A stretch of DNA of 64,000 nt from Candidatus Woesearchaeota archaeon. Its GTDB lineage: Archaea > Nanobdellota > Nanobdellia > SCGC-AAA011-G17 > JAGVXY01. Each line of letters starts with the position of its first letter. Position 1 is the first letter of the stretch. Made by a program: the position numbers and the translations under genes. The stretch covers positions 1,643 through 65,642 of the forward strand of contig JAGVXY010000010.1 in the NCBI GenBank assembly GCA_018303545.1. The letters are read 5' to 3'. Below are positions 35,635 to 36,687 of this stretch, piece after piece. The notes under the pieces were generated by a model. It did not search any database and was not told the origin of the DNA. It saw nothing but the letters and a program-made list of their open reading frames with translations.

Positions 35635-36687
35635 TTATTGAGGTTTATTGCCACTAACATATTCAATAATGTTTGGTGTACCCATGAATTTCCACAATTC
35701 AACTTTATCGGCACTTGATATTTTTCTATCATCCAACAAAGTATCAAGTCTATTTTTATTATAATAATCCAGTGCATCTTCATGTCCTTCTTTATCACAC
35801 ACTATTACATTTTTAAAAGGTGCAAGAGATTCATTAAGTTGACCATTTTTTAAACAATTATCAATCGATGCGTATAAAATCCTATTTAGCCCAAGCCCAC
35901 AACTATTAAATTTCATATCTTCACTATAATTGATTTTCATTGCTTTTAGTATATCTGATTTATCAGATATTACGCCTAAACTCAATCCTCTAACCGGTTT
36001 AAGATTTTTATTCCCACATTCACACTCTTTCATAAAGTACCAAAGATACTTTGAACATGGATCACAATAAGTGCCTTTATCTGGTCCCCTATCAAAGGGA
36101 TAAATAAAGTCTACGTAATAAGGTTTATCTATTTTTGGTTCATATAACTCACCAAAACCTAATTTATTGAAAAAATTGTGATAAAGGTTAGTAATATTTT
36201 CTATGACAAAATCTTGATTCTTACTTGAGTTAAGCGTATATATCGGCATTCCTATAAATGCTTTAACCAAATATGGTTGTCTAACACTCCCATCCCTAAA
36301 TCTATGCCCGATATCATAAACCAGAGTATCTTTATTATAGGGTAAATTACCTCTATTTCTCATCATATCAATCAAGAATTCTTCATCAGTCGCCGCTAAT
36401 ATGTACTGGTCATCTAATTTAAAAACCCCGTTTTGATATTCTGAATATCTTCCACTTTCTTTCCATTGTGAAATAGGTCTTATCAATGGAAAACCTACTC
36501 TTTGTAGTTCATAGGCATCGGCTAAATCTTCAAAAATTCTAGTAACATTCTTTACCATTCTAGAACCTAAAGGGGTAAACGTTACCTGCCCCTTTTCAAA
36601 TGGTTTAATTAAGTAATTTTTTACGAAATCTGAATCATTACACTGTGAAACATTTTTGGGTAAAAATAACATATTGCTTGCTTTCAT
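35635..36687 (-). CDS. Stand-alone class II aminoacyl-tRNA synthetase catalytic core paralog (class IIa-like; no anticodon-binding domain; Cys-rich insertion)
   Basis: Motif 1-like RVGFPLIRPISQWKESGRY, LAATDEE (cf. LRPTHEE), motif 2-like GHRFRDGSVRQPYLVKAF, motif 3-like CGLGLNRILYA. Insert CDPCSKY...CECG. Confidence 0.65.
   Translation of the reverse strand: MKASNMLFLPKNVSQCNDSDFVKNYLIKPFEKGQVTFTPLGSRMVKNVTRIFEDLADAYELQRVGFPLIRPISQWKESGRYSEYQNGVFKLDDQYILAATDEEFLIDMMRNRGNLPYNKDTLVYDIGHRFRDGSVRQPYLVKAFIGMPIYTLNSSKNQDFVIENITNLYHNFFNKLGFGELYEPKIDKPYYVDFIYPFDRGPDKGTYCDPCSKYLWYFMKECECGNKNLKPVRGLSLGVISDKSDILKAMKINYSEDMKFNSCGLGLNRILYASIDNCLKNGQLNESLAPFKNVIVCDKEGHEDALDYYNKNRLDTLLDDRKISSADKVELWKFMGTPNIIEYVSGNKPQ

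What the first reader, a model, noticed from the sequence alone, without database searches (positions are those of the whole stretch)
35635..36687. Orphan class II aminoacyl-tRNA synthetase catalytic core without tRNA-binding domains
- The 350-aa protein keeps class II motif 1/2/3-like segments: RVGFPLIRP...WKESGRY, GHRFRDGSVRQPYLVKAF and CGLGLNRILYA.
- It has no anticodon-binding or editing domain.
- It carries a Cys-rich insertion (CDPCSKY...CECG) that could bind Zn, as in methanogen-type SerRS and amino acid:carrier-protein ligases.
- Truncated aaRS paralogs of this kind usually act as amino-acid adenylating or ligating enzymes (AsnA, HisZ, aa:CP ligases, PoxA) rather than in translation.
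- Here it is the first gene of the island operon.
Basis: partly seen in the sequence, partly recalled or inferred. Interest (0 to 1): 0.7.

Follow-up and report, generated by a model that had tools for sequence, protein, structure and literature searches.

The report
Degenerate ProRS paralogue heading aminoacyl-nucleotide cassette
This archaeal gene is a stripped-down copy of prolyl-tRNA synthetase that has lost its ATP/metal-binding residues and sits at the head of a widespread but undescribed gene cassette in ultra-small archaea and bacteria, where it most likely attaches proline to a nucleotide to make an antibiotic-like mimic of prolyl-AMP.

Summary
The 350-aa ORF at 35635-36687 (-) is real. 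It is a very rare paralogue of bacterial-type prolyl-tRNA synthetase (ProRS): three sequences in 1.8-5.8 billion proteins. The model has pLDDT 91 and TM 0.81-0.84 to bacterial ProRS.

It was wrong on two points. A truncated anticodon-binding domain is present, and the four-Cys knuckle is inherited from minimal ProRS, not SerRS-like.

The protein keeps the proline-amine TXE loop, the alpha-phosphate Arg and the adenine-stacking Phe/Arg. It has lost the adenine-N6 Glu, the motif-2 loop Arg and the metal-site Glu/His.

Context decides the reading. The gene heads a cassette of PLP decarboxylase, B12 radical-SAM enzyme, MccF-like S66 peptidase, MccD homologue and two degenerate dCTP-deaminase-like proteins. 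The MccD-like/DCD/DCD core recurs in DPANN archaea and CPR bacteria. In 39 of 42 well-flanked loci a divergent class II synthetase paralogue lies nearby, usually AlaRS-like with AcmF-type substitutions, sometimes LysRS-like. Only three loci have ProRS-like.

Best reading: it is the amino-acid-specifying enzyme of an aminoacyl-nucleotide (prolyl-AMP-mimic) pathway, probably transferring proline from Pro-tRNA. No biochemistry supports this; the product is unknown.

The parts
35635..36687 (-). ProRS-like paralogue, 350 aa: bacterial-type ProRS catalytic core without the INS editing domain, with a truncated anticodon-binding domain
   Evidence: ORF. NCBIfam proline--tRNA ligase 74 bits against a cut-off of 558. 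PDB sequence hits to bacterial ProRS, E 2e-10. Model pLDDT 91.4. Foldseek TMq 0.81-0.84 to 2j3m/2i4n. Only 3 family members known.
36379..36390 (-). TXE loop (T100-D-E102-E103), kept: the amino-acid alpha-amine binding site
   Evidence: Aligned with 95-100% conserved T/E/E columns. Equivalent to MtbProRS Thr111/Glu113, which bind the proline amine (PMC13629369).
36232..36318 (-). Degenerate motif 2 (residues 124-152). Arg131 and Phe144 are kept. FRDE Glu is Gly133, the loop Arg is Lys142 (Gln in P0002), and the loop is 2-3 residues shorter
   Evidence: Alignments. Column audit. Residue roles from PMC13629369.
36016..36066 (-). Four-Cys knuckle C208xxC211...C222xC224 at the former INS insertion point; probable structural Zn site
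   Evidence: Invariant in P0001/P0002. Cys at the same columns in 45-48 of 82 ProRS. pLDDT 93-96 in this region. Zn binding is inferred, not tested.
35869..35982 (-). Strand before motif 3, plus motif 3 (residues 236-273). 'GIEVGHIF' is 'GLSLGVIS' (metal-site Glu to Ser236, His to Val239). Motif 3 GLGLNR keeps Arg269
   Evidence: MtbProRS Glu422/His425/Arg462 roles.
35638..35826 (-). Truncated class IIa anticodon-binding domain (residues 288-350): beta-alpha-beta-alpha-beta, lacking the terminal hairpin and helix
   Evidence: HMMER second stretch, query 260-323 = ProRS 447-519. LAPF, LLDDR and GxP conserved. Secondary structure. All three members end at the same point.
36695..36743 (-). Putative operon start: TATA-like ATTTATAAA (36735-36743) and GAGGT ribosome-binding site (36695-36699)
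   Evidence: Read directly from the sequence. Pattern match only, no expression data.
34397..35620 (-). PLP-dependent Orn/DAP/Arg-family decarboxylase, in the position of an MccE1-type partner
   Evidence: Pfam PF02784/PF00278. 23% identity, E 2e-12 to the MccE N-terminal domain. 65-66% identical orthologues in L001 and L092, and a 50% orthologue in the AlaRS-type cassette L094.
32816..34396 (-). B12-binding radical SAM enzyme, nearest to the PhpK P-methyltransferase family; accessory
   Evidence: NCBIfam TIGR04479, 142 bits against a cut-off of 600. Absent from L001. Homologous 531-532-aa genes in L093 and L094.
31657..32763 (-). MccF-like S66 serine peptidase: probable hydrolase of the aminoacyl-nucleotide bond, giving self-immunity
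   Evidence: Pfam S66 N and C domains. 28% identity, E 2e-28 to MccF, with Ser118/His311/Glu243 and the adenine-stacking Trp186 conserved in the alignment (roles from PMC8323819).
30861..31682 (-). MccD/AgnB1 homologue: SAM-dependent transferase with a class I methyltransferase fold. Part of the invariant core
   Evidence: Best plasmid-wide hits are mccD genes. BLASTP E 5e-31 to MccD and 3e-27 to AgnB1, both full length. More than 500 relatives at 60-74% identity in DPANN and CPR.
30356..30877 (-). DCDa: dCTP-deaminase-like. Keeps the deaminase Glu (WTLE) and has lost the IDxG Asp. Part of the invariant core
   Evidence: Pfam PF22769. TIGR02274 72 bits, below the 92.8 cut-off. Alignment to 1ogh. 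Present in 41 of 44 well-flanked loci.
29823..30359 (-). DCDb: dCTP-deaminase-like. Keeps the IDIG Asp, but the catalytic Glu is Gln (ITFQL). Part of the invariant core
   Evidence: Pfam PF22769. Full-length alignment to Mtb DCD-DUT 2qxx. Present in 42 of 44 well-flanked loci.

Best explanation
SHOWN:
- The ORF encodes a degenerate paralogue of bacterial-type ProRS. It has the catalytic core, a Cys knuckle in place of the INS editing domain, and a C-terminally truncated anticodon-binding domain.
- It is the first gene of a seven-gene operon.
- The conserved core of that operon (MccD-like SAM transferase plus two complementary, degenerate dCTP-deaminase-like proteins) recurs in DPANN archaea and CPR bacteria.
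- The core is usually accompanied by an MccF-like S66 peptidase and often by a PLP decarboxylase.
- The core almost always has a divergent class II synthetase paralogue beside it: AlaRS-like in most loci, LysRS-like in some, ProRS-like in three.

INFERRED:
- The synthetase-like gene is the interchangeable module that decides which amino acid is joined to a nucleotide-derived scaffold.
- The product is an aminoacyl-nucleotide, here a prolyl-AMP mimic. It would be of the same class as processed microcin C, agrocin 84, ascamycin and phosmidosine.
- The MccD-like enzyme (with the decarboxylase) decorates the product. The S66 peptidase protects the producer by cleaving off the amino acid.

MORE SPECULATIVE:
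- The protein keeps the proline-amine, alpha-phosphate and base-stacking residues. It has lost the metal site, the triphosphate-binding loop Arg and the adenine-N6 Glu.
- It therefore probably does not activate proline with ATP. It more likely works like AcmF, taking proline from Pro-tRNA(Pro) made by the housekeeping enzyme and transferring it to an amine on a nucleotide analogue.
- That acceptor may be a pyrimidine nucleoside 5'-phosphoramidate supplied by the DCD pair.
For: 1. Identity: ProRS-only hits in NCBIfam, PDB sequence and fold searches. High-confidence model.
2. Not housekeeping: 74 bits against a 558 cut-off. Only 34 of 78 columns that are >=70% conserved in ProRS are kept. Only three sequences exist in 1.8-5.8 billion proteins, and the GTDB representative-genome and JGI metagenome contig scans added no further family member.
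3. Selective loss: T100/E102, R131, F144 and R269 are kept. E133G, R142K/Q, E236S and H239V are lost. These map to published MtbProRS roles (PMC13629369).
4. Partner genes: homologous to MccD (E 5e-31), AgnB1 (3e-27), MccF (2e-28, with triad and Trp186) and more weakly to MccE1 (2e-12). Their functions are described in PMC8323819.
5. Precedent in agrocin 84: the class II core-only protein AgnA sits beside AgnB1 and near the MccF-like AgnC5.
6. Modularity: 39 of 42 well-flanked cassettes have an AlaRS-like or LysRS-like paralogue. All score far below the family cut-offs.
7. Head swap: the window's S66, MccD, DCDa and DCDb are 65-81% identical to those of AlaRS-type archaeal cassettes. L094 has the same architecture with an AlaRS-like gene in first position.
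8. AcmF link: the cassette's AlaRS-like proteins carry Asp-to-Glu in the DTGxGxER motif, and Asn-to-Gln in the Woesearchaeota type. These match AcmF's diagnostic D232E and N219Q. AcmF lacks adenylation activity and uses Ala-tRNA to acylate a nucleoside sulfamate (PMC12945691).
9. Product class exists: phosmidosine, a natural Pro-AMP-like phosphoramidate nucleotide (PMC6429109, PMC11229370).
Against: - There is no biochemical or expression evidence of any kind, and the product is unknown.
- No enzyme in the cassette has a demonstrated way to make the proposed amine-bearing nucleotide acceptor. The role given to the DCD pair is conjecture.
- The anticodon-binding domain is truncated, which could weaken tRNA binding. 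That sits awkwardly with a tRNA-dependent mechanism.
- Motif 2 Arg and motif 3 Arg are intact, so a non-canonical NTP-dependent activation is not excluded.
- The decarboxylase is only weakly similar to MccE1. It scores better against DAP-decarboxylase and TIGR03099 models.
- No exporter and no uptake (Trojan-horse) moiety is evident in the window's operon.
- The core is highly conserved (60-74% identity across domains) in organisms with tiny genomes. That could point to a housekeeping or tRNA-related role instead of a toxin.
- The Asn-to-Gln assignment in the AlaRS-like proteins depends on an ambiguous alignment register.
- The structural model was built from an alignment dominated by ProRS, so it leans towards that fold.
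Confidence: 0.5

Rival explanations
1. ATP- (or other NTP-) dependent amino-acid ligase. The core activates proline or a proline-like acid as an acyl-nucleotide and couples it directly to an acceptor. This is like AgnA (as proposed for agrocin 84), AsnA, PoxA or the aa:carrier-protein ligases.
For: Motif 2 Arg131, the stacking Phe144 and motif 3 Arg269 are all kept, as is the TXE loop. AgnA, a class II core-only protein next to an MccD homologue, is proposed to form the P-N bond of agrocin 84. Loss of the adenine-N6 Glu could mean a different NTP is used, not that no NTP is used. The cassette always carries pyrimidine-nucleotide-type DCD proteins.
Against: The metal/alpha-phosphate ligands Glu422/His425 (Mtb numbering) are Ser/Val. 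The 98%-conserved motif-2 loop Arg is Lys/Gln and the loop is shortened. The AlaRS-like proteins in the same slot carry AcmF-type substitutions that abolish adenylation in AcmF. No carrier-protein gene is present in the cassette.
Confidence: 0.2
2. Non-catalytic binder. The protein is either a target-mimic decoy that sequesters a prolyl-adenylate-like toxin (immunity), or a HisZ-like regulatory or scaffold subunit for the neighbouring enzymes.
For: The residues kept are those that hold the aminoacyl-AMP moiety. Those lost are needed for chemistry. HisZ is a precedent for a class IIa paralogue turned into a regulator (established knowledge). The 14-nt gap to the decarboxylase gene (1 nt in L001) suggests coupled expression.
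Against: Under this reading no enzyme in the cassette would attach the amino acid, so swapping Ala-, Lys- and Pro-type paralogues has no clear rationale. The cassette already has an MccF-like immunity enzyme. There is no HisZ/HisRS similarity. Strong conservation of the TXE loop and both Arg between members 61% identical is compatible with catalysis as well as binding.
Confidence: 0.15
3. tRNA-directed system. The synthetase-like protein is a tRNA(Pro) (or Ala or Lys) recognition module that brings the MccD-like transferase and the DCD-like proteins to a tRNA, for modification, editing or repair. This would be a housekeeping function of reduced genomes.
For: The core is very conserved and widespread in CPR and DPANN. 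Cassettes often lie among genuine synthetase genes: LeuRS, LysRS-I, LysRS-II, GluRS. Part of the anticodon-binding domain is retained. In the window an AlaX-M editing gene is the divergent neighbour.
Against: DCD-family enzymes act on free dCTP/dUTP (PDB relatives). MccD, MccE1 and MccF homologues are known from small-molecule nucleotide-antibiotic pathways. An S66 peptidase with the nucleobase-stacking Trp has no obvious tRNA role. The anticodon-binding domain is truncated. The ProRS-like version is far too rare to be a housekeeping function.
Confidence: 0.1
4. A divergent but functional minimal ProRS that charges tRNA(Pro) in a reduced archaeal genome.
For: INS-less 390-450-aa ProRS enzymes with the same Cys knuckle are common in metagenomes. 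No other ProRS lies in the 64-kb window.
Against: It scores 74 bits against a 558 cut-off. Metal-site and loop residues are lost and the anticodon-binding domain is truncated. It is a bacterial-type enzyme in an archaeon, found in only three contigs although relatives of the host are well sampled. It occupies the slot held by AlaRS-like paralogues in near-identical cassettes.
Confidence: 0.03

Closest known systems
AcmF (ascamycin biosynthesis): truncated AlaRS-like, aminoacyl-tRNA-dependent transferase (PMC12945691; Zheng et al., ACS Catal 2024, as cited there)
   Same: Both are class II synthetase paralogues reduced to a catalytic core plus part of the tRNA-binding region. Both have lost residues needed for ATP-dependent amino-acid activation. 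Both are placed in a pathway for an aminoacyl-adenylate mimic. The AlaRS-like proteins that normally fill the target's slot share AcmF's D-to-E change, and in part its N-to-Q change.
   Different: The target derives from ProRS (class IIa), not AlaRS. There is no detectable sequence similarity to the cassette's AlaRS-like proteins. The AcmF sequence itself was not available for comparison. The surrounding genes (MccD-like, DCD pair, S66) are unrelated to the sulfamate pathway. tRNA dependence is untested here.
Bacterial (P-type) prolyl-tRNA synthetase, especially INS-less forms such as R. palustris ProRS (PDB 2i4l-2i4o) and metagenomic minimal ProRS
   Same: Same fold (TMq 0.81-0.84). Shared motif 1 WxESGR, TXE loop, motif 2 Arg/Phe, motif 3 Arg, the Cys knuckle at the INS site and the start of the anticodon-binding domain.
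   Different: Only 23-27% identity. It lacks the adenine-N6 Glu, the motif-2 loop Arg, the metal-site Glu/His, a beta-hairpin before motif 3 and the last ~30-35 residues of the anticodon-binding domain. It fails the NCBIfam cut-off by a wide margin.
Agrocin 84 cluster of pAgK84: AgnA (class IIb core-only), AgnB1 (MccD-like), AgnC5 (MccF-like), AgnC1 (reported remote ProRS similarity)
   Same: A synthetase catalytic-core paralogue lies next to an MccD-family gene, with an MccF-like peptidase in the same cluster. The cluster makes an aminoacyl-adenylate mimic that contains phosphoramidate bonds.
   Different: The target shows no sequence similarity to AgnA or AgnC1. The agn cluster has many other genes and a resistant LeuRS, and it lacks the DCD pair.
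Microcin C biosynthesis and immunity (MccB, C, D, E, F)
   Same: Homologues of MccD and MccF, and a weaker match to MccE1, occur together in one operon.
   Different: There is no ThiF-like MccB, no recognisable MccA peptide gene and no MccC exporter in the operon. A synthetase paralogue and two DCD-like proteins take their place.
Phosmidosine (Streptomyces): prolyl-8-oxoadenosine phosphoramidate
   Same: It is the only known natural product that resembles Pro-AMP. This is the compound class predicted here.
   Different: The papers read do not describe its biosynthetic genes. No link to this cassette has been shown, and the base predicted here may not be a purine.

Membership tests
Prolyl-tRNA synthetase (functional, P-type) | Scores above the curated family threshold | tested here: not met
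   NF006625 73.9 bits against 558. TIGR00409 52.2 against 306.7. No Pfam tRNA-synt_2b hit.
Prolyl-tRNA synthetase (functional, P-type) | Class IIa catalytic fold with TXE loop, motif 2 Arg, stacking Phe and motif 3 Arg | tested here: met
   T100/E102, R131, F144 and R269 are conserved. Fold TMq 0.81-0.84 to ProRS.
Prolyl-tRNA synthetase (functional, P-type) | Metal and alpha-phosphate ligands (Mtb Glu422/His425), adenine-N6 Glu144, motif-2 loop Arg | tested here: not met
   S236/V239, G133 and K142 (Q in P0002) at columns that are 77-98% conserved in ProRS (residue roles).
Prolyl-tRNA synthetase (functional, P-type) | Complete anticodon-binding domain | tested here: not met
   The domain ends after its third strand. 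About 30-35 C-terminal residues are absent in all three members.
AcmF-type aminoacyl-tRNA-dependent synthetase-like transferase | Truncated synthetase paralogue with degenerate ATP/activation site | tested here: met
   This is an analogy of pattern, not sequence homology to AcmF.
AcmF-type aminoacyl-tRNA-dependent synthetase-like transferase | Transfers the aminoacyl group from aa-tRNA to an amine on a nucleoside analogue | not testable with these tools
   Needs an enzyme assay with Pro-tRNA(Pro) and candidate acceptors.
AcmF-type aminoacyl-tRNA-dependent synthetase-like transferase | Sequence homology to AcmF (AlaRS-derived) | tested here: not met
   The target is ProRS-derived. hhalign against the cassette's AlaRS-like protein gave probability 0.2. 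The AcmF sequence itself was not available.
Microcin C-type peptidyl-nucleotide cluster | ThiF/E1-like MccB nucleotidyltransferase and MccA precursor peptide | tested here: not met
   None of the seven operon genes has a ThiF domain. No precursor peptide gene was identified; very short ORFs were not searched systematically.
Microcin C-type peptidyl-nucleotide cluster | MccD, MccE1 and MccF homologues | tested here: met
   E 5e-31, 2e-12 (weak) and 2e-28. MccF triad and Trp186 are conserved.
HisZ (HisRS-like regulatory subunit) | Best homology to HisRS/HisZ | tested here: not met
   No HisZ/HisRS family or structure appears among the listed matches, which are ProRS and then ThrRS.
SerRS-like amino acid:carrier-protein ligase | SerRS-type core with active-site Zn, and an adjacent carrier-protein gene | tested here: not met
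   The fold and sequence are ProRS-type. The Cys knuckle is at the INS site, remote from the motifs. There is no carrier-protein gene in the operon.
Known anti-phage defence systems (PADLOC) | Significant match of cassette proteins to defence models | tested here: not met
   Only generic radical-SAM and methyltransferase matches, and a chance-level hit for the target (E 0.003).

The most novel reading that the evidence does not exclude
The ProRS-like gene is one interchangeable 'warhead selector' of a previously unrecognised biosynthetic logic used by ultra-small episymbionts (DPANN archaea and CPR bacteria).

- A conserved trio (MccD-like transferase plus a heteromeric pair of degenerate dCTP-deaminase/dUTPase-like proteins) builds a pyrimidine nucleoside phosphoramidate-type scaffold.
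- Degenerate synthetase paralogues (Ala-, Lys- or Pro-type) then load the amino acid from aminoacyl-tRNA.
- The result is a family of aminoacyl-nucleotide toxins aimed at the matching synthetase of hosts or competitors.
- The S66 peptidases serve as self-immunity.
Probability: 0.25. Interest if true: 0.9.

Novelty: new variant of a known kind. Interest (0 to 1): 0.74.

Why it matters
If the reading is right, four things follow.

- **A third synthetase-like class.** A ProRS-derived enzyme would join the AlaRS-like AcmF and the IleRS-like SbzA as synthetase-like enzymes that build aminoacyl-adenylate mimics.
- **An undescribed cassette.** The pathway appears to be widespread and horizontally mobile in CPR bacteria and DPANN archaea. 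Almost nothing is known of secondary metabolism or host manipulation in these organisms.
- **Prediction from sequence.** The amino acid of the product seems to be set by swapping a single synthetase paralogue. That would make product and target predictable from sequence, and the system attractive for making designed synthetase inhibitors enzymatically.
- **A new role for the DCD fold.** The invariant, complementary-degenerate DCD pair suggests chemistry not yet known for the dCTP-deaminase/dUTPase fold.

Even if the toxin model is wrong, the strict association of this trio with degenerate synthetase paralogues is unexplained and can be tested.

Tried and rejected
- **HisZ or a HisRS-like regulator:** no such hits.
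- **SerRS-like aa:CP ligase with catalytic Zn:** the fold is ProRS and the Cys knuckle is inherited from ProRS.
- **Homology to agrocin AgnA or AgnC1:** BLASTP and hhalign were negative.
- **Homology to the cassette's AlaRS-like proteins:** negative, so the recruitments are independent.
- **Anti-phage defence system:** no meaningful PADLOC hits.
- **More family members:** the genome-contig scan gave only an ordinary ProRS from Stammera. The metagenome-contig scan gave none.
- **First structure prediction:** made from a 13-sequence alignment, it was unusable (pLDDT 52). It was replaced by the 85-sequence alignment.
- **AFDB fold search:** the library was unavailable.
- **A nearby tRNA(Pro):** the window has only tRNA-Arg and an intron-bearing tRNA-Gly.
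- **'ProRS-like plus decarboxylase moved as a two-gene module':** dropped after L094 showed the same decarboxylase lineage behind an AlaRS-like head.
- **Sigma-70 promoter and terminator scan:** uninformative for an archaeon and no better than shuffled sequence.
- **Literature searches:** nothing found for SrmL, 'mystery ligase', ProRS-like paralogues, or this cassette in CPR/DPANN.
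Full report
**1. The observation**

A 350-aa ORF (ATG start) lies at 35635-36687 on the minus strand. GAGGT sits 7 nt upstream of the ATG and a TATA-like ATTTATAAA about 48 nt upstream. This fits an archaeal operon start.

The window is low-GC (~33%) and archaeal. It carries GatD/GatE-like ORFs (read from the translations), and the identical protein is named as a hypothetical protein of a Candidatus Woesearchaeota archaeon (J4468_01425).

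Six genes follow on the same strand with overlaps or short gaps:
- a PLP-dependent Orn/DAP-type decarboxylase (34397-35620)
- a B12-binding radical SAM enzyme (32816-34396)
- an S66 peptidase (31657-32763)
- a class I SAM-dependent transferase (30861-31682)
- two dCTP-deaminase-like proteins (30356-30877 and 29823-30359)

**2. What the protein is**

Pfam finds nothing. NCBIfam finds only proline--tRNA ligase models, far below threshold (74 bits against 558).

A sequence search of the PDB hits only bacterial ProRS (E 2e-10). Residues 25-178 match motifs 1-2. A weak second stretch, 260-323, matches motif 3 and the start of the anticodon-binding domain.

A first AlphaFold model from 13 sequences was poor (pLDDT 52). 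A second model from 85 sequences, including INS-less minimal ProRS from the exhaustive search, gave pLDDT 91.4 and pTM 0.90.

Foldseek places that model with E. faecalis and R. palustris ProRS (TMq 0.81-0.84). Archaeal/eukaryotic ProRS and ThrRS follow. The model leans on a ProRS-rich alignment, so the fold assignment is best read together with the sequence evidence.

**3. Anatomy against ProRS**

- The INS editing domain is absent.
- A four-Cys knuckle (C208, C211, C222, C224) stands in its place.
- The same columns hold Cys in 45-48 of 82 ProRS sequences. In spirochaete ProRS, INS is inserted between the two Cys pairs.
- The knuckle is therefore inherited, not a SerRS-like acquisition.
- Residues ~288-345 form the first beta-alpha-beta-alpha-beta of the class IIa anticodon-binding domain, with LAPF, LLDDR and GxP conserved.
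- The last ~30-35 residues of that domain are missing. All three family members stop at the same point.

**4. Active-site audit**

Of 78 columns that are at least 70% conserved in ProRS, the target keeps 34. The table uses the residue roles published for M. tuberculosis ProRS with Pro-AMP (PMC13629369).

| Role (MtbProRS residue) | Target | Status |
|---|---|---|
| Proline amine, TXE loop (Thr111/Glu113) | T100/E102 | kept |
| Alpha-phosphate and proline carbonyl (Arg142) | R131 | kept |
| Adenine sandwich (Phe157/Arg462) | F144/R269 | kept |
| Adenine N6 hydrogen bond (Glu144) | G133 | lost |
| Metal and alpha-phosphate, ribose (Glu422/His425) | S236/V239 | lost |
| Packs against His425 (Phe427) | S241 | lost |
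| Motif-2 loop Arg, 98% conserved | K142 (Q in P0002), loop shortened | lost |

In class II synthetases the motif-2 loop Arg binds the ATP gamma-phosphate. This is established knowledge and was not verified here.

The protein therefore retains what holds an aminoacyl-nucleotide. It has lost much of what is needed to make one from ATP.

**5. Rarity**

A search of 5.8 billion protein clusters found only the protein itself and one 61%-identical relative.

An exhaustive profile search of 1.84 billion representatives added only a 90-aa fragment, P0014. All other hits were ordinary ProRS at E 1e-24 or weaker.

Scans of the GTDB representative-genome contig collection and the JGI metagenome contig collection found no further members. 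The window carries no other ProRS.

**6. Context**

The relative P0002 sits in the same gene order, without the radical SAM gene (L001). The fragment P0014 heads an identical cassette in a Nanoarchaeota MAG (L092).

The transferase is a full-length homologue of two known proteins:
- MccD, the 3-amino-3-carboxypropyl transferase of microcin C (E 5e-31)
- AgnB1 of the agrocin 84 plasmid (E 3e-27)

Its best hits across 72,556 plasmids are mccD genes.

The S66 peptidase matches MccF (E 2e-28). The Ser/His/Glu triad and the nucleobase-stacking Trp186 are conserved in the alignment (roles from PMC8323819).

The decarboxylase matches the MccE N-terminal domain only weakly (E 2e-12).

In pAgK84, AgnA is a class IIb synthetase core with nothing else (Pfam tRNA-synt_2). 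It lies next to AgnB1 and near the MccF-like AgnC5. AgnA has been proposed to form the phosphoramidate bond of agrocin 84 (PMC8323819).

**7. The cassette is widespread and its head is interchangeable**

The MccD-like protein has more than 500 relatives at 60-74% identity in DPANN archaea and CPR bacteria.

I gathered 88 loci and annotated them locally. Among 42 well-flanked loci that carry the MccD-like gene with a DCD gene:

| Neighbouring gene | Loci (of 42) |
|---|---|
| S66 peptidase | 34 |
| PLP decarboxylase | 21 |
| Any divergent class II synthetase paralogue | 39 |
| AlaRS-like | 28 |
| LysRS-II-like | 11 |

An earlier count of 44 well-flanked MccD-like loci found DCDa in 41 and DCDb in 42.

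All the paralogues score far below family cut-offs:
- AlaRS-like: 44-175 bits against 457
- LysRS-like: 262-337 bits against 428-468

Partner-protein identities to the window's proteins show what is conserved:

| Compared cassette | MccD-like | S66 | DCDa | DCDb | PLP decarboxylase |
|---|---|---|---|---|---|
| L001 (ProRS-type) | 74% | 69% | 73% | 82% | 65% |
| L005/L011/L012/L014 (AlaRS-type, archaeal) | 71-73% | 65-66% | 68-71% | 77-81% | absent |
| CPR (bacterial) cassettes | 64-68% | 26-30% | 58-62% | 58-59% | 24-27% |

L094 has the window's architecture with an AlaRS-like gene in first position. The ProRS-like gene is therefore a one-for-one replacement of the AlaRS-like head. The conserved engine is the MccD-like/DCDa/DCDb trio.

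**8. The link to AcmF**

AcmF of ascamycin biosynthesis is a truncated AlaRS-like protein. It lacks most ATP-binding and alanine-activation residues and has the diagnostic changes N219Q and D232E. It transfers alanine from Ala-tRNA to the sulfamate nitrogen of a nucleoside, producing an alanyl-adenylate mimic (PMC12945691).

All 39 distinct cassette AlaRS-like proteins have Glu in place of the Asp of DTGxGxER. The Woesearchaeota type also has Gln where IWNLVF has Asn, although the alignment register of that second motif is ambiguous.

The usual occupants of the target's slot therefore look AcmF-like. The target shows the equivalent pattern of loss in a ProRS frame.

**9. Most likely mechanism**

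- Shown: a degenerate ProRS paralogue heads a conserved cassette with MccD, MccF and (weakly) MccE1 homologues and a DCD pair. The head gene is swapped among Ala-, Lys- and Pro-type paralogues.
- Inferred: the head specifies the amino acid of an aminoacyl-nucleotide product, here a Pro-AMP mimic. Phosmidosine is a natural example of that class. The MccD-like enzyme, with the decarboxylase, decorates the product. The S66 enzyme gives self-immunity.
- Speculative: the transfer depends on aminoacyl-tRNA. The acceptor is a pyrimidine nucleoside phosphoramidate made by the DCD pair.

Three observations feed the last idea. DCDa keeps the deaminase Glu but has lost the IDxG Asp. DCDb keeps that Asp but has Gln for the Glu. 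The target has lost its adenine-N6-reading Glu.

**10. Rivals**

- A non-catalytic decoy or regulator fits the pattern of retained binding residues. It leaves no enzyme to attach the amino acid.
- A tRNA-directed housekeeping role fits the high conservation and the frequent neighbouring synthetase genes. It does not fit the known small-molecule roles of the partner families.
- A functional minimal ProRS is very unlikely.

**11. Novelty**

Synthetase-like enzymes in pathways to aminoacyl-adenylate mimics are known (AcmF, SbzA, AgnA). I found no description of a ProRS-derived one. I also found no description of this cassette in CPR/DPANN. The only related remark is in a review, which notes that AgnC1 resembles ProRS remotely. 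I could not reproduce any relation between AgnC1 and the target by sequence.

I rate the finding a new variant of a known kind. There is a real chance (~0.25) that the whole cassette represents a new biosynthetic logic.

All functional statements are computational inferences.

Noticed in passing
window 29823-30877 (-); also the DCD pairs in L001, L005-L094: The two tandem dCTP-deaminase-like proteins are degenerate in complementary ways. DCDa keeps the catalytic Glu (WTLE) but lacks the IDxG Asp. DCDb keeps the Asp (IDIG) but has Gln for the Glu (ITFQL). Active sites in this fold lie between subunits, so this suggests an obligate heteromer with non-standard chemistry.
   Followed up: partly
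window 36968-37669 (+): An AlaX-M alanyl-tRNA editing protein (NF040865, 302 bits, just above the cut-off) is the divergent neighbour of the ProRS-like gene. The cassette family is normally headed by an AlaRS-like gene. No AlaX-M was found beside the other cassettes, so this may be coincidence.
   Followed up: partly
window 28744-28846 (+): tRNA-Gly (anticodon UCC) with a 34-nt insertion in the D-arm region. Rfam detects it (45.9 bits) but ARAGORN misses it.
   Followed up: yes
L024:5724-6839 (-) and equivalents in L040, L042, L043, L046, L051, L054, L057, L063: A 371-aa 'PheS-related mystery ligase SrmL' (NF051887, 397 bits) lies on the opposite strand directly beside the LysRS-like variant of the cassette in 9 of 42 well-flanked loci. 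This is another uncharacterised synthetase paralogue tied to the system.
   Followed up: no
L009, L014-L017, L035, L036, L089 (LeuRS); L093 (S51 peptidase); L011 (HIT hydrolase); L005/L006 (MatE exporter plus a second S66): Full-length LeuRS lies next to the cassette in 10 of 78 loci, recalling the resistant LeuRS AgnB2 next to AgnB1 in pAgK84. S51 and HIT hydrolases, both known microcin C resistance families, and a MatE exporter appear near some cassettes.
   Followed up: no
window 32816-34396 (-); L093:9221-10819; L094:5013-6608: A B12-binding radical SAM enzyme recurs in three archaeal cassettes. In all three the nearest NCBIfam model is the PhpK P-methyltransferase family (122-142 bits, well below the cut-off). 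This hints at methylation at or near phosphorus in the product.
   Followed up: partly
proteins P0016-P0162 from the exhaustive search: There is a large population of INS-less 390-450-aa bacterial-type ProRS, many with a CxxC...CxxC knuckle. Some (P0025, P0032, P0017) also have degenerate motif 2 or metal-site residues. These may be further, independent ProRS-like paralogues. P0017 starts MKASNLF like the target.
   Followed up: no
window 28851-29519 (-): Two small ORFs (111 and 94 aa) lie between the cassette and the tRNA-Gly. They look like a small two-gene module, possibly toxin-antitoxin. They were not analysed.
   Followed up: no
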